From contig DATNEY010000027.1 in the NCBI GenBank assembly GCA_035606665.1, forward strand, positions 133,787 through 197,786: a stretch of DNA of 64,000 bases, read 5' to 3'. The stretch's first letter is position 1. Every line of letters starts with the position of its first letter. The translations under genes were made by a program, and so were the position numbers. The notes below the pieces were generated by a model. It ran no database searches and was not told the origin of the DNA. It saw only the letters and a list, made by a program, of their open reading frames with translations. This document shows positions 7,484-64,000 of this stretch, piece after piece. The DNA is from Vicinamibacterales bacterium. Its GTDB lineage: Bacteria > Acidobacteriota > Vicinamibacteria > Vicinamibacterales > SCN-69-37.

Positions 7484-7490
7484 GGCGCGG

Positions 7491-9312: not shown

Positions 9313-9377
9313 CCGGGGAGCCGGCCCGGAAATGCTCACGGGCACAACTCGCCGCCGATCGTGAGGTGTCACGCGTC

Positions 9378-28533: not shown

Positions 28534-28700
28534 CGGCGGAGGCCCAGCCTGCAGCAGCCGGGTGGCGGGCCGGAAGGCCGGGACGTATTAGCACCTACCC
28601 CCGAGCCTGAAGTGCCCTCCTGCAGAGCGTGGCAGGCTGGAGCCAAGCAGTTGAGCGCCTGCCCTTGCGAACCTCGCCGATTCTGCCAAGATGACGGCTA

Positions 28701-30358: not shown

Positions 30359-30359
30359 C

Positions 30360-31291: not shown

Positions 31292-31411
31292 CAGATCGCC
31301 TGTCAGGTTTCTTGTTGGCGGGCGGCGTACGGCTTTGGTATCATGCCCACTGGATCGAAATAGGCGCGCACCGCTCTCCCAAGGGCTAACGCGTGATCCC
31401 CGTCGATTACG

Positions 31412-31969: not shown

Positions 31970-32100
31970 CGACGATCAGCGAACTCGGCGGATTGTTTGT
32001 CCTTCTGTCGGCGCTCATGACTCCGCTGCTCTATGCGATCTACAAGGGACACGACGTCAGCTTTCATCTCCACTTGCGCCGTAGAAACAGGCGGCGATGA
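31966..32100 (+). CDS. Possible 44-aa single-pass membrane peptide (island ORF6)
   Basis: My translation is MTTISELGGLFVLLSALMTPLLYAIYKGHDVSFHLHLRRRNRRR. ATGA overlap with the ORF5 stop. It falls below the ORF-track size cutoff. Confidence 0.35.
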   Translation: MTTISELGGLFVLLSALMTPLLYAIYKGHDVSFHLHLRRRNRRR

Positions 32101-32155
32101 CATCATGAACGCGGTTCCAGTGTCGACTCCGTCGAAATTGTGGTCGGCGTGAGCG

Positions 32156-32420
32156 ATGGCATTACAGTGGTTTGACGGCGCCAGCTGGCAGGACTACATC
32201 ACGACGGTCATCTGCTCGGACTTCCGACAGTTTGGTGACGTGGTGAAGACGCGAATCCTGCCAGTCTTCGATGGCATAAAGGACGAGGCCGACGATGTTG
32301 CGATCCGCAGCTATCAGGACGGTTTGGCCCAAGCGTCGATACACCTTTGGGATGAACGGAGTCTCATCCACTCCGCTGAAATGACTGGCTTCCAGCATCA
32401 CGAGATGCTGACGTCGATGA
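32156..32420 (+). pseudogene. 5' fragment of an unknown gene abutting the recombinase remnant
   Basis: Track ORF 32156..32737 starts with ordinary-looking sequence (MALQWFDGASWQDYITTVICSDF...). After about 32420 it runs out of frame through recombinase-coding DNA. Confidence 0.3.
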
Positions 32421-33467
32421 AGTGGGCCACGATTCGTCCGACGCGAGATCTACCGCGGCGTCATCGTCTGGAACAAATCACGCAAGCGCGACGACACGCG
32501 CCAAGTGAATCAGCGGCCGCGCCCCGAGTCGGAGTGGCTGCGCTACGACGCACCCGATCTCCGCATCATCGACGAAGCGCTGTGGCGGCGCGTCCAGCAG
32601 AGACTGGAGGAAGGCGCGACGCTCGCCGCGCGGCTGACGAATGGCCGCTTGCAGGGCCGACCGCCGAAGACGCCAACCAACAACCTGCTGGCGGGCTTGG
32701 CGAACTGCGGCCTCTGCGGCGGCAGCTTGGTCGTTGAGAAAAGCCCCAGAAAGCACGGCCGGGTGCCGGAATACATCTGCTACCGCCACCGCGCGACCGG
32801 CGCATGCGAGAACGCGCTCCGCATGCCGGTCGCGGAGTTGAACGAGGCGGTCCTTCAGGCGATCGAAGCCCACGCCCTCACGCCCGAGGCGATCGAACAG
32901 GTGATCCACCTCTCAGAGCGGAGCGACACGGCTGAACACCAAGCGCGGCTGGCCCGAGAGCGGAAGGATGTCGAGAAGAAAGTCGGGCGGCTGGTCGCGG
33001 CCGTCGCCGAGGCCGGTGACGTGGCCTCGCTGGTCGAGAAGCTGCGTGAGTTGGAAGCGCGACTCAAGGCCATCGACCATGAGGTCAGAACCCTTCAGCC
33101 CGTCCCACACTTGCCCCCGAATGTGATCGAGAACCGGCTGGCCGAGTGGCGGCGGATTCTTCGAGGTTCGACCACTCAGGGCCGCACGGTGCTTCAGAAG
33201 ATTCTCAAAGGTCGGCTGACCTTCATGCCACGCGCGGACGGGCTCGGATACGACTTCTCAGGTCCGACGCGCTTCGACAAGCTCTTTACAGGCGTCTCCT
33301 GCCCGCCAGCGCCCGCGTGGATCGCGAACGATCGGCGGGGGCTGGAGAACACGAGCCCGGACGATACGTTCGATGGCGACTATGGGCGGCTGCTGGAACG
33401 CGCTTACGAGAAGAGCGTAAAAGTATTGGCGTCCCCGGCGGGAATCGAACCCGCGTCTCGGCCTTGA
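32421..33467 (+). pseudogene. Large serine recombinase lacking its N-terminal resolvase catalytic domain
   Basis: The frame opens right after the stop at 32418-32420 and reads ...EIYRGVIVWNKSRKRDD...LRIIDEALWRRVQ... (recombinase domain), NCGLCGGSL...YICYRHR..GAC (zinc-ribbon domain), then a coiled coil. No Ser-catalytic domain lies upstream. The 3' end runs about 40 nt into the tRNA-Glu gene. Confidence 0.75.
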
Positions 33468-33501
33468 AAGGGCCGCGTCCTAGCCGCTGGACGACGGGGA
33501 C
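33427..33501 (-). tRNA. tRNA-Glu (anticodon UUC), CCA encoded
   Basis: Hand-folded: GTCCCCG/CGGGGAC acceptor, GTCC/GGAC D stem, CGGCC-CUUUCAA-GGCCG anticodon arm, GCGGG-TTCGATT-CCCGC T arm, then GCCA. Confidence 0.9.
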
Positions 33502-50052: not shown

Positions 50053-52539
50053 ATGGTCCTGCCGCCTCCCGTTCGAGTGTTCATTTCGTATTCATGGGAC
50101 GCGCCCGCACACCAAACGCGCGTTCTTGAACTGGCTCAGCGGCTTCGTCGCGACGGCATCGACGCGTGGCTCGATCGCTTCACGGTGTTTCCGCAAGACG
50201 GTTGGCCGAGATGGATGGAACGCGAGGTGAGGCAATCAACGTTCACACTGGTCGTCGCTACGGAGAACTACGCGGAACGCTATCGCGGCGATGCCCCGAA
50301 GGAAGTTGGCCGCGGCGCAACCTGGGAGGGCGCGATCGTTACAAGCGCCCTGTACAGGGCTGGGGCGCGCAACGACAAGTTCCTGCCCGTCGTGTTTTCC
50401 AAGACAGACATCGGTCACATCCCGGAGCCTCTTCAGTCGTCGACCTATTTTCAGGTCGACACGGAAGAAGGCTACGATGCTCTCTACCGTCTGATTACCG
50501 GGCAGCCGAGCATCGTTCCAGCCAGTGTTGGGCGCGTTCGACACAGGCCGATCGCTCAAGAAGTCGCCCCCAAGGGCGCGCCGCGTGTCGAGTTGCCCAT
50601 TCATGACCACGCGATCGTTCACTCGAATCTTCCGCGAATGCCCTACGGATTCTTCGGCCGCGAAGACGAGCTTCGTCGCATCGCGGACGTCCTGGCACCC
50701 GAAGCGCGTGCATGGGGCGTGCTAATCGATGGTCCTGGTGGAATCGGGAAGACGGCCCTTGCGATTCGGGCTGCGGAACTGACGCCCGTCGGACAATTCA
50801 GGCGAGTTGTGTTTCTGTCTTCAAAAACCCGCGAGTTGACACCAGATGGCGAGCGTGCGCTGGAGAACTTCGTCGTTCCCGCGTACCTCGACATGCTCAA
50901 CAATCTGGCGAGGCAAATCGGCAAGCCCGAACTGACCAACCACAGCGACATTGAGCGTTCAGCGTTGTTGCAAGAAGCGCTGCAAACCGAGAACGCGCTG
51001 CTGATTTTTGACAACCTCGAGAGCCTCACAATGGGCGACCGGGAGCGCCTCTTCGAGTTTCTCTCGCGATTGCCCCGGGGCTGCAAAGCGATTGTCACGA
51101 GCCGGCGTCGCACGGACATAGATGCTCGCGTCATTCGTCTCGAGAGATTGGCCCAGCCGGCCGCCCTGGAATTTATTGCCAAGCTGGCGGAGGATCGTCC
51201 GTTGCTCTTCAAGGCAACCGACGCCGAGCGAGTCGAACTCTACGCGGGCACTGGGGGTAATCCCCTCCTCATTCGCTGGGTCGCCGGACAACTCGGCCAG
51301 GGCCACTGCCGGACAGTCAAAGATGCGCTGTCGTTCATTGCCAAGGCCCCGAAAGGTAACGACCCGCTTGAGTTCATTTTCGGCGATCTCGCCGCCTCCT
51401 TTACGGCGGCAGAAAGTCGAGCGCTCGCAGCCCTCAGTCATTTCACGCTGGCCGCGGAGGTGCGTTTCGTCGCGGAAGTAGCGGAACTGTCGCAGAGCGC
51501 TGCTCAAACCGCCCTCGACGATCTGGCTGGGCGCGCGTTGGTGACAGCCGCGGACTCCGAAGGGAGAACCTTCACCCTGATGCCTCAGGTGGCCCATGTT
51601 TTGCGGACGTCGAGGCCCAACGACGTGGATGCAGCAAAGGAACGTCTGGACAACTATGCCTACACACTGATCATGGAGAACACCGTCCGGGCGGACCAGT
51701 TTCATCAACTAGAAGGCCAATGGCCCGTTGTGGCTGCGGCATTGCCCGTCTTCCTTGAAGGACCGAATCAACGACTCCAGAGCGTTTGCGCTGCCCTGGT
51801 CAGTTTCTTTCACTACTACGGGCACCTTGATGAGTGGCTGTCGCTCGAGCGCCAGGCCGAGGAACGGGCGGTGCAGGCTCAGGATTGGCTTCAGGCAGGG
51901 TGGCGGGCCTACCGCGCTGGATACGCGCTCCGGCTGCTCGGGTTTTCACCGGACATCTTTGCGCACGCAGATCGCGCAGAGACCCACTGGAGGAGCGCAA
52001 AAGCCGGAGCACGAGAACACGCTGCCGCGCTTCAACTGCGCGGACTGGCCTACGCGCTCGCCGGAGATCATAGCAAGGCGATCGGGGCATTTCGCGGTGC
52101 CGTAGAACTCGATCGGGGTGTTGCTCCAGACAGCGCTGATGTGGCGAATGATCTGAACACCTTGGCAGGCGCGGAATTGTCGGCTGACGACCTGGTCAGC
52201 GCCGAGGATCATCTTCGAGAAGCCTTGCGAATCGCGAACGCCGCCGGATACGACGAAGGGGTTGCATATATCACGACCAACCTGACCGAGCTTGCCCTCC
52301 AGCGGAAGGACTGGGCCGCTGCCGAGGGGCTGGCCAGGACTGCTATGGACCTGTCTCGCAGGCTCGGCAGGAAGGCCCTGATCGCTCAGGACCACGTCCA
52401 TCTGGCCAAGGCTCTCATCGGTCAGGGACTAGGCCATGAGGCTCGTTCGCATGCCAGTCGAGCTGTCGAGATCCTTAGCGTCCTGCCCTTTGTCCAGGAA
52501 CTCGATCGAGCCCGCGCCGTTCTCGCGGACTGCCCCTAG
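50053..52539 (+). CDS. TIR-superfamily (SEFIR/TIR_2-like) NB-ARC TPR STAND protein; probable antiviral (Avs-like) NTPase
   Basis: N-terminal VFISYSWDAPAHQTRVLELAQRLRRDGIDAWLD. P-loop GPGGIGKT, Walker B LLIFDNLE, IVTSRR, GGNPLLI. C-terminal TPR-like helices. Confidence 0.85.
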   Translation: MVLPPPVRVFISYSWDAPAHQTRVLELAQRLRRDGIDAWLDRFTVFPQDGWPRWMEREVRQSTFTLVVATENYAERYRGDAPKEVGRGATWEGAIVTSALYRAGARNDKFLPVVFSKTDIGHIPEPLQSSTYFQVDTEEGYDALYRLITGQPSIVPASVGRVRHRPIAQEVAPKGAPRVELPIHDHAIVHSNLPRMPYGFFGREDELRRIADVLAPEARAWGVLIDGPGGIGKTALAIRAAELTPVGQFRRVVFLSSKTRELTPDGERALENFVVPAYLDMLNNLARQIGKPELTNHSDIERSALLQEALQTENALLIFDNLESLTMGDRERLFEFLSRLPRGCKAIVTSRRRTDIDARVIRLERLAQPAALEFIAKLAEDRPLLFKATDAERVELYAGTGGNPLLIRWVAGQLGQGHCRTVKDALSFIAKAPKGNDPLEFIFGDLAASFTAAESRALAALSHFTLAAEVRFVAEVAELSQSAAQTALDDLAGRALVTAADSEGRTFTLMPQVAHVLRTSRPNDVDAAKERLDNYAYTLIMENTVRADQFHQLEGQWPVVAAALPVFLEGPNQRLQSVCAALVSFFHYYGHLDEWLSLERQAEERAVQAQDWLQAGWRAYRAGYALRLLGFSPDIFAHADRAETHWRSAKAGAREHAAALQLRGLAYALAGDHSKAIGAFRGAVELDRGVAPDSADVANDLNTLAGAELSADDLVSAEDHLREALRIANAAGYDEGVAYITTNLTELALQRKDWAAAEGLARTAMDLSRRLGRKALIAQDHVHLAKALIGQGLGHEARSHASRAVEILSVLPFVQELDRARAVLADCP

Positions 52540-53006: not shown

Positions 53007-54200
53007 TCAACGCAACCACTTATTGTCGAACACGGGCGAATACCGGTAGTTCTTCCCGCAGAACATCGCCTCGTCGACGACGGTCCGGAACGAGGGGTCA
53101 GTGGTTCGCCGGACCTTCATGATGAAATCGACGTCAATGAACGCCGGATCATCGCGTCGTGATCGGCAAATGTTCTGGATACGGTTGAAGTACACGATGG
53201 GATCACAAATCGTTCGCGGCGGTAGCGTAGGCATCCGCAGGTCGATTTCGGTCGGCGGCCGGTCTCTCCAATGAACTATTCCTGTGATCTCGCAGATCTG
53301 TCGAGCCTGAAACATGTGGAGGGCCAGGGCGCGGCCTTGCCCGGTAAGGGCTGGATCCCCCCGGTATAGATGCGGTGCGAGTTGAAAAGCTGCAAATGTG
53401 CCCATCACCGCGTAGCCCGCCAAGGGCGCCCGGCCCGTAAATAGTCTCTTGATGCTGACATCACTCGGATTCCCGTCCAGCTCGGGGAGCAAGAACCAAT
53501 ACAGCATCGTGCCCATGAGCGCGGGATAGAACCAGTGAATCTGACTGAGCGACTGGACGTGGAATAACGCGAACTGCGCCAGCGCGCCAAGGCGGATTGA
53601 GCGTCGCCGCGCGAGAAGGCCCCAGCTCATCACCATTTCCAGTACGACAACGTACACGCACGCGGCCGCAGTCAGGCCGCTCGGGATCAACCATAAGGGG
53701 TGATAGAGAACCGCACCGGACATCCACTCGCGATTCAGTTTGAGCGTGCCGGCCCACACGTAGAAGGAAACAAGAACCAACGGCACGGACCACCGCTTTG
53801 CCGGAGAAAAGAGGAAAACCAGATTCAGCCAAAAGAGCATGTAGAACTCGTTCGCTCGGTAGCGGTAGTCGAGCGACACAAGGCCGAAGAGGTAGAGGTT
53901 TGCACAAAGCAGCAGCCACCACCATGAGCGCCATTTGGCGCGTCCCAGCTGAACTCCCGCGAAGACGATCAATACGCCGTACCCGGCAAGAAGGAATCTA
54001 ATGGGTTCGATGCTGTCAAATCGGATCTGCCAGCAGTCGGCAAAATGCGGCCAGCAGATGGGCTCGTTTCGTGCCAGCAGCAGCGAAAGGGTGTTCGTAT
54101 TCAGGAAATAGAGCGCAACGATGACGTGGCCGCCGAGGATCGCCCAAGCGTACCGTTGGAGACGGGGATCGCTGGCGATCTCTGCGAATGGGTCGCGCAT
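53007..54200 (-). CDS. Polytopic membrane protein, HTTM-like (vitamin K gamma-carboxylase / SdpB-related fold)
   Basis: Start placed at MRDPFAEI. SLDYRYRANEFYMLFWLNLVFLFSPAKRWSV and YVWAGTLKLNREWMSGAVL resemble the HTTM core motifs as I recall them. The C-terminal ~120 aa are soluble and Cys-containing. Confidence 0.55.
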   Translation of the reverse strand: MRDPFAEIASDPRLQRYAWAILGGHVIVALYFLNTNTLSLLLARNEPICWPHFADCWQIRFDSIEPIRFLLAGYGVLIVFAGVQLGRAKWRSWWWLLLCANLYLFGLVSLDYRYRANEFYMLFWLNLVFLFSPAKRWSVPLVLVSFYVWAGTLKLNREWMSGAVLYHPLWLIPSGLTAAACVYVVVLEMVMSWGLLARRRSIRLGALAQFALFHVQSLSQIHWFYPALMGTMLYWFLLPELDGNPSDVSIKRLFTGRAPLAGYAVMGTFAAFQLAPHLYRGDPALTGQGRALALHMFQARQICEITGIVHWRDRPPTEIDLRMPTLPPRTICDPIVYFNRIQNICRSRRDDPAFIDVDFIMKVRRTTDPSFRTVVDEAMFCGKNYRYSPVFDNKWLR

Positions 54201-54214: not shown

Positions 54215-56605
54215 CTACTTGACCAACTTCAGCGTCACCGACCGCGTCTCCCCGTCGGCCAGGTTGAACGGCGTGGCCTTGAAGGCCAGAGCACGCAACA
54301 ACTCCGGATCGCGCCACGCGCCGCTCGGCATCTGAGGGACTGCGATTGCGAGGTAGAGCCCCGGCACCAGCCCGGCAATTCGGAACGCGCCCGCCTGATT
54401 GGGTCGACCGAGCTTGACGAAGCGCGACGGAACCGCCCACCGATTGGGGTCGGCGGAAAACAGGATGGCGTCGTAGGCAGTGGCGGGCTTGTCGCCATCG
54501 CTCACAGTTCCTGTGACTGAAGCACCGGTCTTCTTGAACGTAATCTCGACCGCGTCGATGTCGCCGCGCCCGAACTCGATCGGCGAATCGGTCACGTCCT
54601 TACCGCCTACCGTCACGTGCGCCATGACCCACGAGGCTGGCCTGGCGGAGGCGCGAATTACCGCCCGCCCAATGAGGCCCCGGATCACGAACGCGCCGTC
54701 GTCCGTCCACTCCGGTCCTTTGGCGAGCGTCTCGTATGGCGAAGAAATGAAATCCGTCGGTACCTGTTCAATCGAGATGTCGCGACCCGACGGATACGGG
54801 TCTGGTCCTTCGAATATCACTCGACCGCGAAGGGTCGACGGCGGCCGGGCCTCGACTCGCACTCCGGTGGTGGTGGGTGCTGTCACCTCGACGGCCGTGA
54901 ACCCATACACGTTGTCCGCGGGCACTCCGGCTGCGTTCGGTCGGGCCCAGCTGGGGACTTCGGCTTGAATTGCGTACGAGCCCTCGGGCACGTTTCGAAA
55001 GACAAATGACCCGTCCGCGGCGCTCGTCGCAGAAGCCCTCGTGAGCATGATGCGGACGTCGCCGCCGGGCGCAGGCAGTAGGGCCAACGTGGCGGATGGC
55101 ACGGGCATCCCAGCGGGAGTGACGACCGTGCCACGAACCTCGGTGGTCCGCGCCGGCACGAGCGGAAAGTCCACACCCAGAACGTCCGCGTCGGAGCCGA
55201 CCTGGACGAGCGTTGCGCCCATCCCTAGCCGCGTACCGGGATACAGGGTCAGCGCAAACCCACTTCGGTCCGAGCCGGCCACGAACGGCCCCGATAGCGC
55301 CATGACGTAGTAGCTTCCAGGCGACACGTCGGGGATCCGAAACGCGCCCGTGTCGTCCGTTGGCTGCGACTCAATCCGCGAGGTGACCGGCACCAGCCGC
55401 GTGGAATTGACGCCGAACTCGGTGGTGGCCAGACCCACCAGGATCCCCGGGGCGGGATCGCCGAACTCGTCGAGCACGCGGCCCGCGACCGCCCGCGGTC
55501 TCGGCATCGCAACATCGGCGCGATCAAACTCAGCGCCGTCGGTCAGATCGATGCGAGAACCGATTGGAGATGCTTTGGTCCATCCGTAGGTGCGGTCGAC
55601 GAAACCCGGAGCAGCCACGCGGACGATGTATCGGCCGCTGGGCAGTTCGGTGACCGTAAAACGGCCTTGCGCATCGGTGTAGAACACACCGCGCGATTCG
55701 AACACAGGGCCGTCTTCGCGCGTGATCGTGACGCGTGCCCCTTCAATGGGCCGGGACGAATCGAGGCCGGTGATCTTTCCCGCCAGTCTGCCCGTTCCGC
55801 GAGCCGCCGATCGCACGGGGGCCACACCTGCCGGACCGATTGATGCCCCCGACTGGGCGGTCGTTGCGGCAAGCGTGATGTCGATGCCCGCGAGCACGCT
55901 GGTCGACTTGACACTCACGGACTGAGCATCCTCAATCCGGAGGACGCCGGGGTAGTACGTCGCCGACGCTCGAGAGGCCGCGCGTGCAGTTGCGGCTGGC
56001 GCGAGGCGCGAGAGCGGCGCTGACTCGATGACGTAGTCGCCCGGCGGGAGCGAGTGCAGGCGGTAGTTTCCTCGGTCGTCGGTTCGCACCGGCTGAATGC
56101 CAGTGGCGAGCGGCGCGTTCGGACGACCGGTCACCCGAACCTGAACCACCATATTCGCAACCGCTTGGCCGCTCGCGTCCACGACACGGCCTTCAATGGC
56201 GGCGGCGCTCTCGACCACGATATCCCTGGTTGCGGCGCCGAGTGCGCGAATCTCGACACTGGTCGCCGCGACAGCAACGCCTCGCTCAGAGTTCGCCGGA
56301 ACAAAGAACCCAGGCTTGACGGCATCCAGTCGGTACAGCCCTGGGGTGAGATGCTCAAAAAGGAAGCGGCCCTCAGTGTCGCTATCGGAGGTAATGACAG
56401 CGCCCGTAGGTGACGTGAGCGTCACGCGGGCTCGGCGAATCGGCGATGCGACCCCAGCGTTGTTGAGCACAACGACTCGCCCGCGAAGCGACGCCGACGT
56501 CGTCTGCGCGCGTACCTCCACGTGCCGCACTACGGCGAGCGACGCAACGGTCATCACGCTAGCCCAGAACAGTCCACTGATCAGGACCCTGGATCGCAGA
56601 CTCAT
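54215..56605 (-). CDS. Secreted protein with multiple carboxypeptidase-regulatory-like (CarboxypepD_reg) repeats
   Basis: Start placed at MSLRSRVLISGLFWASVMTVASLAV. Repeated G(R/K)V.D..G.P...A.V......TD..G.F....L.PG.Y units. Confidence 0.8.
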   Translation of the reverse strand: MSLRSRVLISGLFWASVMTVASLAVVRHVEVRAQTTSASLRGRVVVLNNAGVASPIRRARVTLTSPTGAVITSDSDTEGRFLFEHLTPGLYRLDAVKPGFFVPANSERGVAVAATSVEIRALGAATRDIVVESAAAIEGRVVDASGQAVANMVVQVRVTGRPNAPLATGIQPVRTDDRGNYRLHSLPPGDYVIESAPLSRLAPAATARAASRASATYYPGVLRIEDAQSVSVKSTSVLAGIDITLAATTAQSGASIGPAGVAPVRSAARGTGRLAGKITGLDSSRPIEGARVTITREDGPVFESRGVFYTDAQGRFTVTELPSGRYIVRVAAPGFVDRTYGWTKASPIGSRIDLTDGAEFDRADVAMPRPRAVAGRVLDEFGDPAPGILVGLATTEFGVNSTRLVPVTSRIESQPTDDTGAFRIPDVSPGSYYVMALSGPFVAGSDRSGFALTLYPGTRLGMGATLVQVGSDADVLGVDFPLVPARTTEVRGTVVTPAGMPVPSATLALLPAPGGDVRIMLTRASATSAADGSFVFRNVPEGSYAIQAEVPSWARPNAAGVPADNVYGFTAVEVTAPTTTGVRVEARPPSTLRGRVIFEGPDPYPSGRDISIEQVPTDFISSPYETLAKGPEWTDDGAFVIRGLIGRAVIRASARPASWVMAHVTVGGKDVTDSPIEFGRGDIDAVEITFKKTGASVTGTVSDGDKPATAYDAILFSADPNRWAVPSRFVKLGRPNQAGAFRIAGLVPGLYLAIAVPQMPSGAWRDPELLRALAFKATPFNLADGETRSVTLKLVK

Positions 56606-56631: not shown

Positions 56632-57234
56632 TTACGAACGACCCCATGCCAGAACGACGGCGGCTATCGACGCCGCCGTGCGCAACACCCACATCATGCG
56701 GCTGCCGGCAATGGAGTGCAAGATCTTCCGCCGGAAGACGGCCCTCCCCGCGTTGTCGAGGCCAGGCGTCGGCGCAAAAATCTCTCTGGATAACAAGAGG
56801 ACCGGTACGGTCCTCGCGATTCCGAAGGCGGTCATCGTGACCACGGCCAATGTGCTATCGCCGATGATCAGCAGCAACGCGATCATCAGGTAGTAGCTCG
56901 CAAACGGCACGACAGTGAGCCAGCCGATGCCGAGGATCGTTCCGAAGATCATCGGATACGCCGGCCACGACCACCGAGTCCATTGACGAGGAACCAGCCA
57001 GTGACCTGTGGGCACTCTTGCGCCGACCAGATCCAGCAGGAATGCGCCGACGCAGACTGCCACAAGCACAGGCTGCCGCACGCCGCTGGGAAGAGCTCGG
57101 CACAAGACGCCCACCTGCCCCACCAACAGGCCATTGATCGCGCCACCGAAGACCATGGACACGGCCATCAGTGGCACGAGTAGCGCGGATTGCCATCGCC
57201 GAAATAAGCCCACGTCGACCGACGTGGCGATCAC
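56632..57234 (-). CDS. Hypothetical integral membrane protein (about 6 TM)
   Basis: Hydrophobic 200-aa ORF with no recognised family. Confidence 0.5.
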   Translation of the reverse strand: MIATSVDVGLFRRWQSALLVPLMAVSMVFGGAINGLLVGQVGVLCRALPSGVRQPVLVAVCVGAFLLDLVGARVPTGHWLVPRQWTRWSWPAYPMIFGTILGIGWLTVVPFASYYLMIALLLIIGDSTLAVVTMTAFGIARTVPVLLLSREIFAPTPGLDNAGRAVFRRKILHSIAGSRMMWVLRTAASIAAVVLAWGRS

Positions 57235-57354: not shown

Positions 57355-57717
57355 CTAGTCGCACGAACCCCCTTCGTGAACCGAGCAACACCATGGCAGG
57401 CCAAACATCTCGCCGCCCCCAACCTCCATCTCGCCATCGCATCTGTAGTCGCAACACAGGCCGTCGGGGCTTCCTTCCCAGCACTGCACACCATCGCACG
57501 AGTTGCATGGGATGCTTGAGCCGGGACACACGTCGCCGCACAGGGAAGTGCAGCCGCTGGCCTGCACCGTGCTCGAGAACCCGGCAAACGCCACCGTGCC
57601 CGCAAGGATTCCCAAGGCCCGGCGAGAGAAGCGATCGATGCCAGGCACGCGCTCTTCCGCGACTGCTAGTTGCGCGAGTTTACGGTCGAGAAAGTCAAGA
57701 ATCACGATTACCTCCAT
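57355..57717 (-). CDS. Tat-signal cysteine-rich mini-protein (12 Cys and 2 Trp in a 67-aa predicted mature part)
   Basis: FSRRALGILAGTVAFAGFSSTVQA-SG, then CTSLCGDVCPGSSIPCNSCDGVQCWEGSPDGLCCDYRCDGEMEVGGGEMFGLPWCCSVHEGGSCD. GGAGG lies 5 nt before an in-frame GTG at codon 5. Confidence 0.6.
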   Translation of the reverse strand: MEVIVILDFLDRKLAQLAVAEERVPGIDRFSRRALGILAGTVAFAGFSSTVQASGCTSLCGDVCPGSSIPCNSCDGVQCWEGSPDGLCCDYRCDGEMEVGGGEMFGLPWCCSVHEGGSCD

Positions 57718-57752: not shown

Positions 57753-58304
57753 TCACTTGACGCCGAGCGCGCTGATGAGTGAATCAAAACCTTCCCGCTT
57801 GTGAGTGACCATGCCGTCTCGCACGCGTCCGGAAGCATCGATGCCCATCGCGTACGGGTATGTGACAAGGCCCAGGTCGCGCCGAGTCGCATTCGCCGGG
57901 TCATAAACCACTGTGATGCCACTGGGCACGTCTCCAATGTGGTCAAACAGTTCATCTCGAGTGCCGGGGTACACAAAGAGATACCTGAGTGACGAGCCAG
58001 TCTCGGCTGCCACCTGGCCAAGGACGAGCAGGGCCTTTCGGCACAGCGCGCATTGCTTGGCGCCAACGAGGATGACTTGCGCCGCATTGGGCTCGGGTAG
58101 CTGCTTTGTCGCGCCACTGGCGGTCACCACCTCGACACCAGACCACAACGAACCAGCAGCCAACCCCTGCCGCTTACGACCGTCCGCCGACACCAGCCGC
58201 CGCCGCGCCAAGTCCCTGAGCAGAAGGACCGTCGTGAAACTCAACAGCAGTGTGAGCGCCCACAGGAGCGCGTAGGACAGGGTGAAAGCCGTGCTACCGG
58301 TCAT
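57753..58304 (-). CDS. Membrane-anchored thioredoxin-fold protein (MauD/TlpA-like)
   Basis: N-terminal TM helix, CALC (CxxC) in VGAKQCALCRKAL. Overlaps the mauE-like gene by 11 nt. Confidence 0.7.
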   Translation of the reverse strand: MTGSTAFTLSYALLWALTLLLSFTTVLLLRDLARRRLVSADGRKRQGLAAGSLWSGVEVVTASGATKQLPEPNAAQVILVGAKQCALCRKALLVLGQVAAETGSSLRYLFVYPGTRDELFDHIGDVPSGITVVYDPANATRRDLGLVTYPYAMGIDASGRVRDGMVTHKREGFDSLISALGVK

Positions 58305-58878
58305 GATTCGCCTTTGGCGCCACTTGCAGAGACACTACGCCAGCGATAAGTACCCAGAACAACCAAGCGGTGACCGCGAGCAGCGCTCCGACGGCAAGTT
58401 CATCGACAGCCAAGGCCCACACCGGACGACTCGCGCATGATGCCGGTCCCATCACTGCCTGGCTCGCGATCGCGCCCGCGCCGGCCGCGATCGTCACGTT
58501 GCGAACGATGGCGCTGGTTCCCGAGCGCCCCTCCGCCCCATCGCCGCCAAAACATCCGCAGTCGATTTTGCTGCCGCGCACTCGAAGCACGAACAGGACA
58601 ACGGCGAATCCGATCATCATCGCGGCTACAAGTGCTGAGATGAGACCAACTTGAACGCCAGCCAATATGGCGATGCCTGCGAACAACTCCCCGACTACGA
58701 GCAGCCCTGCGATTTGCGCAGATCGGCCGGTTGCCTTCGCGCCGAGCACTTCCGAAATGAAGGCGATCACGCCACTTGGTGCTCTCGCCTTTCCCACGGC
58801 TGCTCGAAGCAAGATGCCGGCGACCAGCAAGCGCAGACCGATCACCGACACATCGACAGCGCCACACTCCGCTGCCAC
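58294..58878 (-). CDS. MauE/DoxX-family membrane protein
   Basis: Four TM segments and the family-typical DCGCFGG motif. Confidence 0.75.
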   Translation of the reverse strand: MAAECGAVDVSVIGLRLLVAGILLRAAVGKARAPSGVIAFISEVLGAKATGRSAQIAGLLVVGELFAGIAILAGVQVGLISALVAAMMIGFAVVLFVLRVRGSKIDCGCFGGDGAEGRSGTSAIVRNVTIAAGAGAIASQAVMGPASCASRPVWALAVDELAVGALLAVTAWLFWVLIAGVVSLQVAPKANHDR

Positions 58879-58886: not shown

Positions 58887-59537
58887 CTACGAGATCTGCG
58901 CTGCCACACGCTCCAGGTCAGTGCGGGTCAGTCGATTCTTATGGAACGAACTGACGACTACACCGAATCCGTTTCGATGGAACGCCAGGCAGTGCGCGGC
59001 AGCGAATGCCGCCCGGTTCTCATGACTCTCGTAATAGTGCGCCTCCACGCGCTCACCGTCGCCCACCGTGATGACCAGTGGAACGGTTTGCTGGGCCTTG
59101 CCACGCACCTGGGGCATCGTTGCCAATGGCGCGACGAAAACGCTGAGCCCCGAATTGATAAACTCGCCGTGACTACGCGCAGAGGCGCGGACGGCGGAAA
59201 AACAAAGCTGCTTACTGTCCTCGACGTTGAGGAACGCCCCACGTTGCCCAACGGCCTCCGAACAGGCCGTCGTCGACTGAAGCTTGAAATCCGCCGGCAG
59301 CCACCTTGGCTGCGGATATGTGGCCAGGAGTTTCTGCCCGCGGCTTTTAGCGTCGGCCACGGTGAGTTGCTGGTCGTGCCGGTCTAACGCATTAGCCGGT
59401 TCCGGTCGGCGACCATTTCTCTTGTCGCGCCGGCCCCACAACATGCTGCCCGCCACGAACGGCAGCGCAAGAAGGGAGACGACGAGGCCCCGACGACTGG
59501 GCTGCAGGGGTTTGGAGTCAGAAGTCTGTTCGGCCAT
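58887..59537 (-). CDS. Membrane-anchored hypothetical protein
   Basis: Start placed at MAEQTSDSKPLQPSRRGLVVSLLALPFVAGS. The periplasmic domain is unrecognised. The track ORF extends to 59600. Confidence 0.45.
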   Translation of the reverse strand: MAEQTSDSKPLQPSRRGLVVSLLALPFVAGSMLWGRRDKRNGRRPEPANALDRHDQQLTVADAKSRGQKLLATYPQPRWLPADFKLQSTTACSEAVGQRGAFLNVEDSKQLCFSAVRASARSHGEFINSGLSVFVAPLATMPQVRGKAQQTVPLVITVGDGERVEAHYYESHENRAAFAAAHCLAFHRNGFGVVVSSFHKNRLTRTDLERVAAQIS

Positions 59538-59599: not shown

Positions 59600-60043
59600 C
59601 TATGTTCGTGGGATCGTGGTCGCAAGCGGTATTGCTTGCCGTGTAGTCCTTTTTGTTGCCGGCGCGTCCAATTCAGCAGCCGTGCGGAAGTCAGCAGCCA
59701 CCGCTGCTATCGTTTGCGAGCCACTGCACGCTGCGCGGTACTCCGTCGGCGTGAGCCTGACGTAGTCCCGAAACAAAGCGGTCAGACGAGGCGGCGTGAG
59801 ACCGACGGCAGACGCCACCTCCTTCTGTAGGAGCGAAGGATCTCGCAGCAGCTCCTGAGCTCTCCTCAAGCGGCGCTCGCGACGCCAGGAGGCAAATGTG
59901 CAGCCGGCTTGTCGGACAATAATTGATTCAAGCGTGTGACGATGAGTGCCCAGCTGGCTGGACAACTCGGTCAGCGACAGCCGTAAATTGCCATCCAGCA
60001 ACTCGTCGGCACGCCGAAACAGACCGACGGCGTCGTATCCCAC
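59600..60043 (-). CDS. AraC-family HTH transcription regulator (DNA-binding domain only)
   Basis: LSLTELSSQLGTHRHTLESI...LLQKEVASAVGLTPPRLTALFRDYVRLTPTEYR gives the two HTH units. Confidence 0.8.
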   Translation of the reverse strand: MGYDAVGLFRRADELLDGNLRLSLTELSSQLGTHRHTLESIIVRQAGCTFASWRRERRLRRAQELLRDPSLLQKEVASAVGLTPPRLTALFRDYVRLTPTEYRAACSGSQTIAAVAADFRTAAELDAPATKRTTRQAIPLATTIPRT

Positions 60044-60325: not shown

Positions 60326-62377
60326 TCACTTCGGGAATAGCTGAAGGGTGTCGGTCAGCCGCAGAAGCGTCCCCGCCCTCACGTCTTTCAGAATCCGGGT
60401 CTCGTCATACTCCTCGAGCGCCAAACTGAGATCGGTCTGGGCGATTGGGAACTGCGAGGCAATCCAGCCACGCTGCCTCCCGAATTCGCGCAGGGCGACC
60501 AGCCCCATGAACTCCAACACTTCCGCGAGCTTCTCAGCTACCGCTTTTCCTGACGCTGGTCCAACCGGTACGAAACCCGCGAGCTCTTGAGCTGAACGGG
60601 AGATCGCCTGCGTGAGGTGACCGCGCAGAGGGTCAAAGGCCAGCCGCAGCCGCTGGACGGTATCCAGCTCGTGACGGGAAGCGTCAAGAGCCGCAAACGT
60701 GAGGCCGAAAGGGACGAGCGCGAAGAGGGTCAGTGCCTCTTGGATCTGTCCTGCCCTCGGCGCGGCGAAATCGAGATCGTAAAGCGGGTCATCCTCAAGC
60801 CAGTACACTGACACCGGACAAGCATTTCGGAAGACCAAGTACTGACGCGTGAAGCGCAGCGCTGTGATGCATTGCTCGAGAGAGAAACCGGCGTCGCGAA
60901 GCGACACGGTCGCCTCGAAGCCGACCGCCTTCATGTGATCGGCAAGACTTGACCACACGCCCGCCTCGTCTCCGTGCTGTAGCTTCAGGTGCATCAGCCG
61001 TTTGCGCGTCGAGTAGTCGGTGGGTTCGACCTCAAGCCGTGTCTGCCAGAAAGCTTCCGCTCTCGCCGCCCTTTCAGGATCGCCTGTGGACATGGCCCGC
61101 AGAAGGTCCGACTTCAGACGCCACATGGCGCGATGGCCAGGCTGATGCGCAAGTCCCTCGTCGAGCGCCGTCAGCGCGCCCACGTCATTTCCGGAACCAC
61201 GACGCGCCACCGCCAGCCAGTACCAGACGTGCGGCCAGTGGACGGCCTGTTGGGGGTGGAACTTGAGGGCCTGTTCGAGCAGACCAGCTGCGTCCGGCGC
61301 CCGATCGAAATCGACGATGAGACTTACGGCCTTCGACACGAGGGCTTCCCATTTCAGGGGCTCGAGTTCGAGCGCACGGTCAAAGCAGTCAATCTCGAGA
61401 CTGTGCTTTCCAACACGGTGGTACGCGCTTCCGAGATTCTTGAGCGTCTCGATTTGGTTTGGCTTTTCCTTGAGGACCGCCTCATACGAAGCGATGGCTC
61501 CGTGCTGATCGCCAAGCGCGGTTTGCGCATTGCCCAGATTGAAGAGCTGACACCACAGGGGCTCTACTCGCTCCTCCACGAGTTGCTCAAACAGCTTCTT
61601 GCCCTCAACGAGCGATACCCGGTCGCGCGTCGCAATACCCTTCTCGACGAGGATGCTGGCCCTGATTGCCCGCCCCTGATTGGAGTTCTTCAGCGCAAGA
61701 GCCCGATTGATGCTGGCCAGCGCCTCGTCGTACCGGTGGATTTGGTACTCGCACCACGCCAAGACGGCGTAGGCCCTGCTATCCGGTTCAGGATACTCGT
61801 CGAATGCATCTTTGACGATGATTGCGACGTGCTCATACTTGCCGGCCTCGAAGAGCCGCCACGCTTCCGCGAAACGCTCGCCATCGGGCGGGTCCAGATG
61901 GCCCACCTTCATCGCTGGCGCCAACCCCACGGGAACGTCAACGTCGAGGTACTTCTTCGCGAGGTCCGGCTGCGCCTCTTCGAGCTGGAGCCGCAGCCAC
62001 TCCCGCGAAAAGACGATCAGCCTCCATCCGTAGGTCGTCCAGATTTCTTCGGCAAGCTCGTCGCGATCGACACCGCGGACCTTCGAGGACGTCACGAAAA
62101 CAAGTGTTTGAAACGAGAAGCCACCCTCCGAGAGCTTCGTCGCATCGCGGCGAAGTTTCGCCCTCCAGTTCCCTTCCAGGCTGAACTGGAAAAAGGCCGC
62201 CTCACCATCCCGCCCGCGCCCGCGGCGCGGGTGCTCCTCGGCATCGCGTCCGCCATCCTGCGGTTCAACCGGCACGATCTCCTTGAAGCCGTTCCGGTAC
62301 AGAAGGTCCGTGCACAGGCGCTCGAACGCCCTCGAGTCAATCTCGTTGTCGATGGCCCAGAGAATCTGGCTCTTCAT
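60326..62377 (-). CDS. Restriction-endonuclease-like (Mrr_cat-type) N-terminal domain fused to TPR repeats and an unknown C-terminal domain
   Basis: FERLCTDLLYRNGFKEIVPVEPQDGGRDAEE...AAFFQFSLEG follows the Mrr-type FE..v..ll...G......DGG.D...vQ.K layout, but Ser replaces the usual Lys. At least 6 TPR-like units follow. Confidence 0.65.
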   Translation of the reverse strand: MKSQILWAIDNEIDSRAFERLCTDLLYRNGFKEIVPVEPQDGGRDAEEHPRRGRGRDGEAAFFQFSLEGNWRAKLRRDATKLSEGGFSFQTLVFVTSSKVRGVDRDELAEEIWTTYGWRLIVFSREWLRLQLEEAQPDLAKKYLDVDVPVGLAPAMKVGHLDPPDGERFAEAWRLFEAGKYEHVAIIVKDAFDEYPEPDSRAYAVLAWCEYQIHRYDEALASINRALALKNSNQGRAIRASILVEKGIATRDRVSLVEGKKLFEQLVEERVEPLWCQLFNLGNAQTALGDQHGAIASYEAVLKEKPNQIETLKNLGSAYHRVGKHSLEIDCFDRALELEPLKWEALVSKAVSLIVDFDRAPDAAGLLEQALKFHPQQAVHWPHVWYWLAVARRGSGNDVGALTALDEGLAHQPGHRAMWRLKSDLLRAMSTGDPERAARAEAFWQTRLEVEPTDYSTRKRLMHLKLQHGDEAGVWSSLADHMKAVGFEATVSLRDAGFSLEQCITALRFTRQYLVFRNACPVSVYWLEDDPLYDLDFAAPRAGQIQEALTLFALVPFGLTFAALDASRHELDTVQRLRLAFDPLRGHLTQAISRSAQELAGFVPVGPASGKAVAEKLAEVLEFMGLVALREFGRQRGWIASQFPIAQTDLSLALEEYDETRILKDVRAGTLLRLTDTLQLFPK

Positions 62378-62706: not shown

Positions 62707-64000
62707 ATGCCGTTGCCCCAGGCCAAAGAGAAGGCAGTAGAACTTCTGAAGCGGAAGCGACAGTCCACGCCGGGCGCTCTCGAGCCCATGGGGCCGGCTC
62801 CTCAAGCGCGGCGATTCTCTGTCTTCATCGGATCCGATCTCGAGAAGGCCATCGCACTGGCAGAGCGCTGGATGGGCATGACGGCGGCCCAGGGCACTGA
62901 CGCCTTGGACGCGGTACTCGCGGACGCGGACGCCGCGATGAACACTACGGACTCTGATCTCGTGAAACATGCCCTGATGATGTTCATCACACACGATCCA
63001 GTCGGCCGCCAATTGCCTATTCCGCCGTTGCTCGAGCGCGAACCCGACCTGGTGCGGCCGTCGTCTCGAAGCGCGACAGCAACGCCGGCCGGCCTCGAGG
63101 CCATGGGAGGTACCGGCAAGGAGGCGGCAGTCGATTATTTCCGCGAAGACACTTGGATCAACGAGCATCACGGCAAATGGCACGTGGTCTACCCAGCCGG
63201 TGGCATTCAGAAGAAACTTCGAAATCGACAAGGTGAGTTGTTCTGGTACATGCACCAGCAAATGCTGGCGCGTTACGACGCTGAGCGGCGTTCCCTCGGA
63301 CTGGCCCCCGTTGTGTCGCTCGACACCTTCAATCAACCAATCGGCGAGGGCTACGATCCTGAGATTCCAGGCGGATGGGCCGCGCGCCCTGACGACTCGC
63401 AATGGCCATTGCTCCCGTTGGGACCTGGTCAGAATTATGGCCCCACGCAACACGCCTCGCGCCGGGATCGATTGCGCGCCGCCGCCACGTCTGGAGAGCT
63501 GCAGCATCCCGACGGGAAGAAACATCCAATCGCCGGAGTCGAACAACTCTCCGATACCCTGGAAGCGAACATCGGATCGGTTGAAGGATCGCAATGGAAT
63601 CCGACGTCTTTTTACGGTTCGTACCACAATATCGGTCATGTCCTCATTGCGAATGCCGGGGATCCAGGTGACGGAGTCATGACGAGTACGACGACGGCTG
63701 TTCGTGATCCGGTGTTTTACCGCTGGCATCGCGGCATCGACGACATCATCGATGCTTGGTGGATCAAGAGACCGTCTCACGATCTCGCCGCCTCGGATCC
63801 GAAGGTCCTGGCTAAAGAGATCGGGGCGATCGCTCTCACGGCGGTTCCAGCAGGCGATCCGCAAGCCTGGGCAGGGTCGGAGTTCGGAGGGGCCAACTGG
63901 GAGAAGGCTCCGGCCGGAGTCAGCCTTGACAGGTTGACCACGACGATGGGAACACACGACATCCCCAATCCTGGTGGCGCGCCCATCAAGAAGCCGCACC
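62707..64000 (+). CDS. Type-3 copper protein of the arthropod hemocyanin/phenoloxidase type (partial; runs off the right edge)
   Basis: Not in the ORF track because there is no stop in the window. My translation from ATG 62707 gives CuA region DYFREDTWINEHHGKWHVVYP...RQGELFWYMHQQMLARYDAER and CuB region YHNIGHVLIA...VRDPVFYRWHRGIDDI. Track ORF 62641..63999 (-) is its antisense shadow. Confidence 0.85.
   Translation, partial: MPLPQAKEKAVELLKRKRQSTPGALEPMGPAPQARRFSVFIGSDLEKAIALAERWMGMTAAQGTDALDAVLADADAAMNTTDSDLVKHALMMFITHDPVGRQLPIPPLLEREPDLVRPSSRSATATPAGLEAMGGTGKEAAVDYFREDTWINEHHGKWHVVYPAGGIQKKLRNRQGELFWYMHQQMLARYDAERRSLGLAPVVSLDTFNQPIGEGYDPEIPGGWAARPDDSQWPLLPLGPGQNYGPTQHASRRDRLRAAATSGELQHPDGKKHPIAGVEQLSDTLEANIGSVEGSQWNPTSFYGSYHNIGHVLIANAGDPGDGVMTSTTTAVRDPVFYRWHRGIDDIIDAWWIKRPSHDLAASDPKVLAKEIGAIALTAVPAGDPQAWAGSEFGGANWEKAPAGVSLDRLTTTMGTHDIPNPGGAPIKKPH

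What the first reader, a model, noticed from the sequence alone, without database searches (positions are those of the whole stretch)
57355..57717. Tat-leader mini-protein with 12 Cys and 2 Trp: a miniature MauA-like (tryptophan-quinone?) subunit or a knottin-like secreted peptide
The predicted precursor has a 53-aa leader (LDFLDRKLAQLAVAEERVPGIDRFSRRALGILAGTVAFAGFSSTVQA) with a twin-arginine motif and an AxA-type cleavage site. A 67-aa mature part follows, containing exactly 12 cysteines (three adjacent CC pairs: LCC, WCC and so on) and two tryptophans. From established knowledge, the methylamine dehydrogenase light chain (MauA) has an unusually long Tat leader and 12 Cys forming six disulfides. 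MauA also has two Trp that become the TTQ cofactor, and it depends on MauE/MauD. The N-terminal leader segment here (LDFLDRKLA) also recalls the FDD(L/M)(F/V)EK(L/M)S start of MauA leaders as I remember them. However, the mature part is about half the length of MauA, and I cannot align it confidently. It could therefore be a new small quinoprotein-like subunit, a metal-binding peptide or a toxin/bacteriocin-like knottin.
Basis: partly seen in the sequence, partly recalled or inferred. Interest (0 to 1): 0.7.

Follow-up and report, generated by a model that had tools for sequence, protein, structure and literature searches.

The report
Cysteine-rich peptide with Mau-type folding genes

Summary
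The ORF is real and under purifying selection (dN/dS 0.11-0.24). It has a twin-arginine type leader and a 67-aa acidic mature part with 12 Cys. Two details need correcting: the start is probably the GTG at 57705, giving a 49-aa leader, and there are two CC pairs, not three.

It belongs to a tiny orphan family: about 8 distinct members among roughly 15 billion proteins, none in 185,579 reference genomes, and no Pfam, NCBIfam or PDB match. In every contig long enough to show them, the gene sits in the same cassette: MauE (CGC-FG active site), a MauD-like membrane-anchored CxxC thioredoxin-fold protein (hhalign 93%), the peptide, then a MauF-like membrane protein (hhalign 92.5%). This repeats the mauE-mauD-mauA order.

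The mature peptide shows no detectable homology to MauA. The second Trp is not conserved, and no MauB, MauG or amicyanin lies in the window. A TTQ subunit is therefore effectively excluded.

Best reading: a Tat-targeted, disulfide-rich periplasmic mini-protein folded by its own MauE/MauD/MauF-type module. An invariant Cys-Trp pair and an odd Cys count in half of the family (4 of 8 members) leave a cross-link or metal site possible but unsupported. This is a new variant of a known kind, of moderate interest.

The parts
57355..57705 (-). Precursor gene, 116 aa from the GTG start (stop codon included). The ATG-start version extends to 57717.
   Evidence: dN/dS is 0.11-0.24 against L002, L003, L004 and L006 where dS could be estimated. 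The gene has no NCBI locus tag in the source MAG; it is called only by JGI/ENA/Logan.
57711..57715 (-). GGAGG Shine-Dalgarno sequence, 5 nt upstream of the GTG start and overlapping the alternative ATG.
   Evidence: Read directly from the sequence.
57628..57705 (-). N-terminal leader extension, aa 1-26 (MILDFLDRKLAQLAVAEERVPGIDRF). It is modelled as a helix in a low-confidence model and lies ahead of the twin arginines.
   Evidence: Family alignment. Mean pairwise identity is 47% here against 33% for non-Cys mature positions. The AF2 model shows a helix at residues 3-16, at low confidence.
57559..57627 (-). Twin-arginine motif SRRALG, h-region and the (V/L)-x-A cleavage site (aa 27-49).
   Evidence: SRRALG-LAG is invariant in 6 of 8 members. 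This is the most conserved segment, at 60% mean identity. It rests on the pattern only: the Pfam and NCBIfam Tat-signal models gave no hit.
57358..57558 (-). Predicted mature peptide: 67 aa, 12 Cys, 2 Trp, 11 acidic and 1 basic residue, pI about 4.05. Reduced average mass is 6849.5 Da, or 6837.4 Da with six disulfides.
   Evidence: Invariant positions, numbered on the 116-aa form: C52, C56, C60, C70, C75-W76, C84, C85, D86, Y87, C89, C107.
57753..58304 (-). MauD-like protein, 183 aa: one N-terminal membrane anchor and a thioredoxin-fold domain with a single CxxC (C85-A-L-C88).
   Evidence: hhalign against MauD of Paracoccus and Novosphingobium: 93%, E 3.8e-7, 163 columns. TIGR02661 MauD is the only NCBIfam hit, but far below its cut-off (E 0.038). 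Cys positions.
58294..58878 (-). MauE, 194 aa: a DsbB-like membrane thiol oxidase with a C107-G-C109-F-G loop after the third membrane helix, Lys30 and Glu63.
   Evidence: PF07291, 9.7e-15. BLASTP to P. denitrificans MauE, 1e-5. The motif features match those defined experimentally in bioRxiv 10.64898/2026.03.05.709764.
58887..59537 (-). 216-aa protein of unknown fold with its own SRRGLV twin-arginine type signal or anchor. It occupies the position that mauB has in mau operons.
   Evidence: Homologues precede MauE in L004 and L006. The family is tiny. No Pfam, NCBIfam or PADLOC hit. AF2 pLDDT is 46 and there is no fold match.
59600..60043 (-). AraC-type HTH regulator at the head of the gene string.
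   Evidence: PF12833, 8.7e-14. An AraC-type regulator is also upstream in L004.
56632..57234 (-). MauF-like integral membrane protein, 200 aa, with no conserved Cys.
   Evidence: hhalign against two MauF sequences: 92.5%, E 4.9e-7, 120 columns. Five unrelated membrane proteins scored below 0.5%. It always follows the peptide. Only 6 homologues were found in 5.8 billion clusters.
54215..56605 (-). 796-aa protein made of CarboxypepD_reg (transthyretin-like) repeats. It is often, but not always, the next gene.
   Evidence: PF13620, 7.9e-48. Present downstream in L002, L005 and two JGI contigs; replaced by a sulfotransferase in L004.

Best explanation
The gene encodes a small precursor with a twin-arginine type leader. 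The leader directs a 67-aa, very acidic, Cys-rich domain to the periplasm of a Vicinamibacterales (Acidobacteriota) bacterium.

There its 5-6 disulfides are made by a private oxidative-folding module encoded around it:
- MauE is a quinone-linked, DsbB-like thiol oxidase with a CGC active site.
- MauE re-oxidises a membrane-anchored MauD-like CxxC thioredoxin-fold protein.
- The MauD-like protein passes disulfides to the peptide.
- A MauF-like membrane protein without conserved Cys assists in an unknown, non-redox way, as MauF does for methylamine dehydrogenase.

The product is a disulfide-knotted periplasmic mini-protein. It may work together with the co-encoded 216-aa Tat-type protein and/or the CarboxypepD_reg repeat protein. 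It is not a MauA homologue and does not carry TTQ.

Shown here: the gene is real and conserved; the cassette is conserved; MauE, the MauD-like protein and the MauF-like protein are identified; MauA-family signals are absent.

Inferred: Tat export, disulfide formation by this module, and periplasmic location.

Unknown: the biological role of the folded peptide.
For: - Real coding gene: dN/dS 0.11-0.24 where dS could be estimated.
- Ten invariant Cys with variable loop lengths between them, as expected of disulfide loops rather than a fixed metal-cluster motif.
- P0010 has lost C67 and C106 together, which fits a disulfide pair.
- MauE (PF07291, 9.7e-15) carries the CGC-FG loop, Lys and Glu that are needed for DsbB-like activity.
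- MauD-like protein: hhalign 93% with a single CxxC.
- MauF-like protein: hhalign 92.5% with clean negative controls.
- The order MauE, MauD-like, peptide, MauF-like recurs in every contig long enough to show it: window/L001, L004, L006/L005, and a JGI contig of 10.8 kb. L002 and L003 show the fragments they can hold. This mirrors mauE-mauD-mauA in Paracoccus, Methylobacterium and Novosphingobium.
- The accessory proteins whose families were searched (the MauF-like and 216-aa proteins) are as rare as the peptide, and the MauD-like protein is alone in its 90%-identity cluster. This argues for a dedicated module rather than the cell's general Dsb system.
- The leader is better conserved than the non-Cys mature residues, which suggests it is recognised.
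- The literature reports MauE complementing dsbB, and MauD acting as the DsbA-like partner for the six disulfides of MauA.
Against: - Nothing experimental exists for this family.
- The Tat assignment rests on the motif alone; the Tat-signal HMMs gave no hit.
- Tat normally carries folded proteins, which sits awkwardly with folding by periplasmic disulfide formation. The same paradox applies to MauA.
- Half of the members have an odd number of mature-part Cys: 11 in three members and 9 in P0010. Pure disulfide bonding therefore leaves one Cys unexplained.
- MauE is now considered a generalist enzyme, so adjacency alone does not prove dedication.
- Structure prediction failed (pLDDT 43), so a knotted fold is not demonstrated.
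Confidence: 0.6

Rival explanations
1. A miniature quinoprotein subunit. The invariant Cys75-Trp76 (or another Cys plus Trp76) is converted into a CTQ/TTQ-like quinone. The peptide would then be the catalytic or redox small subunit of a new periplasmic enzyme, with the 216-aa Tat-type protein as its large partner.
For: - Mau-type accessory genes flank it in mau-like order, and the 216-aa gene sits where mauB sits.
- One Trp next to a Cys is invariant.
- Half of the members have an odd Cys count, leaving one Cys free for a cross-link.
- The operon has two Tat-type signals.
Against: - The second Trp is missing in P0002, P0003 and P0007, so TTQ is excluded as a family feature.
- No similarity to MauA, including the short Thermomicrobium forms.
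- No MauG, MauB or amicyanin in the 64 kb.
- No radical-SAM or flavoprotein gene (QhpD/QhpG/LodB type) among the conserved cassette genes, none of which has such a domain.
- The 216-aa partner has no recognisable fold.
Confidence: 0.07
2. A periplasmic metal-binding or metal-buffering peptide (Cu, Zn or a metal-sulfur cluster). It would be comparable in role to the copper storage protein Csp1 or to bufferin-type peptides. MauE, the MauD-like protein and the MauF-like protein would keep its thiols in the right redox state.
For: - 18% Cys, strongly acidic, CxxxCxxxC at the N-terminus.
- Tat export is typical of cofactor-loaded proteins (own knowledge).
- A weak local match to the Fe-S region of hydrogenase subunit MvhG (E 3.9).
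- The MauE/DoxX clan also occurs in Cu-peptide operons, with a weak HvfX hit at E 0.092.
- Odd Cys counts in half of the members.
Against: - Cys spacings vary between members: x3-x7, x5-x6 and x2-x3. That is unusual for a metal-cluster site.
- The MvhG match is not significant, and its CP and IPC residues are not conserved in the family.
- There are no metal-resistance or metal-transport genes in the cassette.
- A disulfide-generating MauE with a CxxC partner fits oxidised rather than free thiols.
Confidence: 0.15
3. A ribosomal natural product (bacteriocin, toxin or signal). The conserved leader would be a recognition sequence, and the peptide would be released outside the cell. This would be analogous to the MauE-associated Cys-rich candidate RiPP families proposed in Streptomyces.
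For: - The leader is more conserved than the core.
- decRiPPter reported Streptomyces clusters with mauE (and in one case mauD) next to precursors with at least 8 Cys.
- The cassette lies in a variable, defence-rich, lower-GC region.
Against: - No sequence similarity to the Streptomyces precursors in either leader or core.
- No exporter, protease or immunity gene is recognisable.
- Tat delivers only to the periplasm of a diderm (own knowledge).
- A 67-aa core is large for a RiPP.
Confidence: 0.1
4. The ORF is not a real gene but a chance ORF in GC-rich DNA.
For: - NCBI's annotation of the source MAG skips it.
- Many overlapping spurious ORFs exist in this 64% GC window.
Against: - dN/dS of 0.11-0.24.
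- Homologues down to 29% identity keep the Cys framework and the gene's position.
- A Shine-Dalgarno sequence sits before the GTG start.
Confidence: 0.02

Closest known systems
MauA, the methylamine dehydrogenase small subunit, with its maturation genes mauF/E/D (TIGR02659, PF02975)
   Same: - A small Cys-rich protein with a long leader that carries an extension ahead of SRR.
- Encoded directly after mauE and mauD.
- A MauF-type membrane protein is in the same operon.
- The window copy has 12 Cys, as MauA does.
   Different: - No detectable sequence homology in the mature part.
- Half the size (67 vs about 131 aa).
- Only one conserved Trp.
- No MauB, MauG, amicyanin or MauJ nearby.
- The Cys count varies from 9 to 12 in the family.
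- The MauF-like protein lacks the WSPCGY segment of true MauF.
MauE-associated Cys-rich candidate RiPP precursors of Streptomyces (decRiPPter, PMC7794033)
   Same: A short Cys-rich precursor (at least 8 Cys, with CW motifs) lies next to mauE, and in one family also mauD, in genomes without other mau genes. The proposed role of MauE and MauD there is modification or disulfide formation on the peptide.
   Different: - No sequence similarity in leader or core.
- The Streptomyces leaders have no twin-arginine signal.
- No MauF-like gene is reported there.
- Different phylum.
- Those families are also uncharacterised.
Short MauA-like genes of Thermomicrobium roseum (L009)
   Same: Smaller-than-usual Cys-rich Tat-type proteins lie beside a MauE fusion protein and a MauF-like 197-aa protein. 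That protein scores hhalign 77% to the family found here.
   Different: They are still clearly MauA homologues (35% identity, with both Trp and the DCC motif kept). The window peptide is not.
QhpC, the CTQ-bearing gamma subunit of quinohemoprotein amine dehydrogenase
   Same: A small cross-linked Cys/Trp peptide subunit that needs dedicated maturation genes (own knowledge).
   Different: QhpC has 4 Cys in thioether links made by the radical-SAM enzyme QhpD, a leader cut by QhpE and a flavoprotein, QhpG. None of these is in the cassette, and there is no sequence match.
Periplasmic Cys-rich metal peptides and proteins (bufferins with DoxX-type partners; Tat-exported Csp1)
   Same: A periplasm-targeted Cys-rich product encoded beside a DoxX/MauE-clan membrane protein (own knowledge; weak HvfX hit).
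   Different: - No MNIO/DUF692 enzyme.
- No helical CxxxC bundle.
- Variable Cys spacing.
- No metal-related genes.

Membership tests
MauA / TTQ methylamine dehydrogenase light chain (TIGR02659, PF02975) | Sequence match to the family models or to MauA structures | tested here: not met
   - No Pfam or NCBIfam hit at E<=0.1, nor at E<=10 for all 8 members.
- The positive control, P. denitrificans MauA, scores 2.8e-120.
- No MauA chain appears in the PDB profile search.
- hhalign against a 6-sequence MauA alignment aligns only the signal region, at 4.6%.
- Shuffle tests give p>0.1.
MauA / TTQ methylamine dehydrogenase light chain (TIGR02659, PF02975) | Two conserved Trp that form TTQ | tested here: not met
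   W76 is invariant. The second Trp (W105) is Leu or Tyr in P0002, P0003 and P0007, each of which has a single Trp in the whole protein.
MauA / TTQ methylamine dehydrogenase light chain (TIGR02659, PF02975) | Twelve Cys forming six disulfides | tested here: inconclusive
   The window copy and three others have 12 Cys. Three members have 11, and P0010 has 9 in the mature part. Ten positions are invariant. Connectivity is not testable here.
MauA / TTQ methylamine dehydrogenase light chain (TIGR02659, PF02975) | Partner genes mauB (heavy subunit) and mauG (TTQ synthesis) | tested here: not met
   tblastn of P. denitrificans MauB, MauG, MauJ, amicyanin, MauM and MauN against the 64 kb found nothing better than E 0.085. 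The rest of the genome was not available.
MauA / TTQ methylamine dehydrogenase light chain (TIGR02659, PF02975) | Encoded after mauE-mauD, with mauF in the operon | tested here: met
MauE (PF07291) disulfide-forming membrane protein (the neighbour, not the peptide) | Pfam match, plus a CXC active site followed by F-G, and conserved Lys and Glu in the first two helices | tested here: met
   PF07291 at 9.7e-15. C107-G-C109-F-G, K30 and E63 were read from the sequence. The criteria come from bioRxiv 10.64898/2026.03.05.709764.
Tat (twin-arginine) substrates | Z-R-R-x-hydrophobic motif, a weakly hydrophobic h-region and an A-x-A type site | tested here: inconclusive
   S-R-R-A-L-G is conserved, followed by (V/L)-x-A. 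The h-region falls below a Kyte-Doolittle score of 1.6. The TAT_signal models gave no hit, and no dedicated Tat predictor was available.
Streptomyces MauE-associated Cys-rich candidate RiPPs (decRiPPter) | Sequence relatedness of the precursor | tested here: not met
   Leader and core comparisons with the three published precursors are no better than shuffles, whereas controls within each family give p<=0.001.
QhpC / CTQ peptides | Radical-SAM QhpD, protease QhpE and flavoprotein QhpG in the cluster | tested here: not met
   None of the conserved cassette genes has such a domain.
Knottin / inhibitor cystine knot | Three-disulfide knot topology | not testable with these tools
   The AlphaFold2 model has mean pLDDT 43 and there is no usable structure. 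No Pfam knottin-type family hit.
Bacterial lipoproteins | Lipobox [LVI][ASTVI][GAS]C at the cleavage site | tested here: not met
   The window has QASGC. Other members have ADGC, QGQC and ASPC. The pattern is not kept (read from the sequence).

The most novel reading that the evidence does not exclude
The peptide is the cofactor-bearing small subunit of a previously unseen periplasmic redox protein. The invariant Cys-Trp pair, together with the unpaired Cys seen in half of the family, would form a cross-linked (CTQ-like) quinone or a metal site. It would be matured by MauE, MauD-like and MauF-like proteins without MauG, and would work with the co-encoded 216-aa Tat-type protein that sits at the mauB position.
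Probability: 0.08. Interest if true: 0.85.

Novelty: new variant of a known kind. Interest (0 to 1): 0.5.

Why it matters
MauE has only just been shown to be a DsbB-like disulfide generator. What MauD and especially MauF do is still unclear, because they have only been studied alongside methylamine dehydrogenase.

This is a compact, self-contained cassette in which MauE, MauD-like and MauF-like proteins serve a different, much smaller Cys-rich substrate. It has no heavy subunit, no MauG and no quinone chemistry to complicate things. It would therefore be a clean natural system for dissecting that folding pathway, and for asking why such substrates carry Tat-type leaders.

It also adds a new orphan family of bacterial disulfide-rich mini-proteins from uncultivated soil Acidobacteriota. 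The gene is missing from the GenBank annotation of its own genome. If the peptide turned out to carry a cross-link or a metal, it would be a new cofactor peptide.

Tried and rejected
- Pfam, NCBIfam, PADLOC and PDB sequence searches with the peptide alone and with the family profile found nothing. The only PDB hit (MvhG, E 3.9) is not significant, and its matching residues are not conserved in the family.
- The profile search of 1.84 billion representatives gave 5 true relatives. Three further hits (P0008, P0009, P0011) are Cys-free repeat proteins matched through composition.
- hhalign and shuffle tests against MauA, including two short Thermomicrobium MauA-like proteins, showed no homology.
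- Leader similarity to MauA leaders and to Streptomyces MauE-associated leaders was not significant after many tests.
- AlphaFold2 gave unusable models of the peptide (pLDDT 43) and of the 216-aa neighbour (pLDDT 46). Foldseek against PDB with the latter gave no hit at E<=0.001.
- Scans of GTDB representative genomes (two) and JGI metagenome contigs (two), using peptide and MauF-like patterns, found no further loci.
- L012, a distant MauF-like/MauE/redoxin locus, shows no Cys-rich ORF within the contig.
- No terminator or unusual RNA structure lies in the 120-nt gap after the peptide gene, and there is no Rfam family near it.
- A lipoprotein reading was rejected because there is no lipobox.
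- A link to the nearby hemocyanin/tyrosinase gene was considered, but it is not supported by any other locus.
- Literature searches for MauF function and for MauA Tat export returned nothing usable.

Full report
**Observation**

The minus strand between 57355 and 57717 holds an ORF of 120 aa from an ATG. The ATG overlaps a GGAGG (57711-57715) that lies 5 nt upstream of an in-frame GTG at 57703-57705. One gene caller (the Logan record) and all homologues begin at this GTG, reading MI(L/K/R)D...; the JGI/ENA records call the 120-aa ATG form. The precursor is therefore most likely 116 aa with a 49-aa leader:

MILDFLDRKLAQLAVAEERVPGIDRFSRRALGILAGTVAFAGFSSTVQA | SGC...

The 67-aa mature part has exactly 12 Cys and 2 Trp. 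It has 11 acidic residues against 1 basic one, 13 Gly and a pI near 4.

The gene is real. Against four homologous loci, dN/dS is 0.11-0.24 with near-saturated synonymous change, wherever dS could be estimated (8 of 10 pairs).

**Source and rarity**

Neighbouring proteins are identical to proteins of a Vicinamibacterales (Acidobacteriota) MAG. In that GenBank record the MauF-like gene is VN700_09415 and the MauD-like gene is VN700_09420. The peptide between them therefore has no locus tag, and only JGI, ENA and Logan gene calls contain it.

The family is very small.
- A word-indexed search of 5.8 billion clusters found three sequences.
- A full HMM search of 1.84 billion representatives added five true relatives of 80-114 aa. 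Three further hits are Cys-free repeat proteins matched by composition.
- Nothing was found in 185,579 species-representative genomes or in the JGI contig scans.

**Family features**

- Invariant positions: C52, C56, C60, C70, C75-W76, C84, C85, D86, Y87, C89 and C107. C67 and C106 are present in all members but P0010, which has lost both together; this fits a C67-C106 disulfide.
- The last Cys (C115) exists only in the three closest members.
- The second Trp is Leu or Tyr in three members.
- Half of the members have an odd mature-part Cys count: 11 in three members and 9 in P0010.
- Loop lengths between Cys vary.
- The leader is better conserved than the non-Cys mature positions: 47% identity in the N-terminal extension and 60% around SRRALG-LAG, against 33%.

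**Context**

The gene order is the same in every contig long enough to show it: MauE, a roughly 185-aa protein, the peptide, then a 200-aa membrane protein. The cassette is often preceded by a roughly 215-aa protein and an AraC-type regulator. It is often followed by a large CarboxypepD_reg repeat protein.

- **MauE** is a clear Pfam match (9.7e-15). It carries C-G-C-F-G after the third helix, plus Lys30 and Glu63. A 2026 preprint tied these features to DsbB-like activity.
- **The 183-aa protein** has one membrane anchor and a single CxxC. It aligns end to end with MauD: hhalign 93%, E 3.8e-7, 163 columns.
- **The 200-aa protein** is MauF-like: hhalign 92.5%, E 4.9e-7, 120 columns against two MauF sequences. 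Five unrelated membrane proteins scored below 0.5%, and a Thermomicrobium protein from a MauA-like cluster scored 77%.

Genuine mau operons read mauF-B-E-D-A or B-E-D-A. The peptide therefore sits exactly where mauA sits, and the 216-aa protein, which has its own SRRGLV signal, sits where mauB sits.

**Is it a MauA?**

I retrieved authentic MauA sequences from Paracoccus, Novosphingobium, Burkholderia and Thermomicrobium. The set includes two short forms, one of them unannotated.

- Profile-profile comparison with the family aligns only the signal region, at 4.6% probability.
- BLASTP, Pfam, NCBIfam and PDB searches are all negative. The MauA control scores 2.8e-120.
- Composition-preserving shuffles give p>0.1, whereas within-family controls give p<=0.001.
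- No MauB, MauG, MauJ or amicyanin is encoded in the 64 kb.

With the second Trp not conserved, TTQ is excluded as a family property. A CTQ-like Cys-Trp cofactor is not formally excluded, but no candidate enzyme for it is present.

**Mechanism proposed**

The precursor is exported, probably by Tat. MauE takes electrons to quinone and re-oxidises the MauD-like CxxC protein. That protein introduces the five or six disulfides into the peptide. The MauF-like protein, which has no conserved Cys, helps in an unknown way.

Two points argue for a private folding module rather than the cell's general Dsb system, even though MauE is now seen as a generalist:
- the accessory proteins that could be checked are as rare as the peptide (the MauF-like and 216-aa families; the MauD-like protein is alone in its cluster);
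- they always travel with it.

The role of the folded product is unknown. The candidates are a partner of the 216-aa or CarboxypepD_reg proteins, a metal buffer, or an antagonistic or signalling peptide.

Structure prediction failed for both the peptide (pLDDT 43) and the 216-aa protein (pLDDT 46, no fold match). This closes off fold-based inference.

**Comparison with what is known**

The nearest described idea is the decRiPPter report of Streptomyces clusters with mauE (plus mauD in one family) next to precursors with at least 8 Cys. These share the concept but not the sequence, and they have neither a Tat-type leader nor a MauF-like gene. The finding is therefore a new variant of a known kind: a Mau-type small-protein maturation module serving a non-MauA substrate.

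**Verdict**

The quinoprotein interpretation is not supported, while the Mau-maturation link is well supported. Interest is moderate (0.5). This is a rare, unannotated, conserved cassette that could serve as a minimal model for MauE/MauD/MauF function, with a small chance (about 0.08) of hiding a new cross-linked or metal cofactor.

Noticed in passing
window 50053-52539 (+): An 828-aa protein with an N-terminal bSEFIR/TIR domain (PADLOC bSEFIR 1.2e-46; Pfam TIR_2, SEFIR), a STAND ATPase (AAA_16/NACHT/NB-ARC) and TPR repeats. This is an anti-phage-defence type gene next to the cassette (about 470 bp from the 397-aa gene at 53007-54200), in a stretch of lower GC (0.60-0.62 vs 0.64-0.69).
   Followed up: partly
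window 60326-62377 (-): A 683-aa protein with a restriction-endonuclease-like N-terminus (PADLOC Aga_REase-TIR model 1e-7; Pfam Mrr_cat 0.047) followed by many TPR repeats. It lies just upstream of the cassette's AraC-type regulator.
   Followed up: partly
window 62707-64000 (+), continuing in L001 3161-4999: A bacterial hemocyanin/tyrosinase-type (type-3 copper) protein (Hemocyanin_M 9.7e-36), 612 aa on the longer contig. It is followed there by a metacaspase (Peptidase_C14) and a Y4kD_C protein. No link to the Cys-rich peptide could be shown.
   Followed up: partly
window about 27500-33500: A low-GC (0.58) stretch next to tRNA-Glu (33427-33501). It holds a GGDEF protein, an AbiJ-like abortive-infection protein (Abi_C 1.3e-12; PADLOC AbiJ 2.4e-11) and a recombinase zinc-ribbon remnant (32505-33467). 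It looks like a small integrated island.
   Followed up: partly
window 57355-57705 (-): The peptide gene has no locus tag in the GenBank annotation of the source MAG: VN700_09415 and VN700_09420 are its two neighbours. It is an unannotated gene in the public record.
   Followed up: yes
L009 (Thermomicrobium roseum plasmid NC_011961) about 5990-6378 and 780-1232, 6407-9412: Two short MauA-like genes, one of them not annotated. They lie beside a 596-aa MauE fusion protein and a 197-aa hypothetical protein that is MauF-like (hhalign 77% to the family here). This is a reduced mau-like cluster in a Thermomicrobiota genome.
   Followed up: partly
window 53007-54200 (-): A 397-aa polytopic membrane protein after the CarboxypepD_reg gene, with no Pfam, NCBIfam or PADLOC match. 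It was not found in the one related locus (L005) that extends past the CarboxypepD_reg gene.
   Followed up: partly
L012 844-3334: A distant variant locus with the order MauF-like (182 aa), a 225-aa relative of the 216-aa protein, MauE, then an AhpC/Redoxin-type protein. No Cys-rich ORF lies within the 3.4-kb contig. The accessory set may therefore exist with a different or off-contig substrate.
   Followed up: partly
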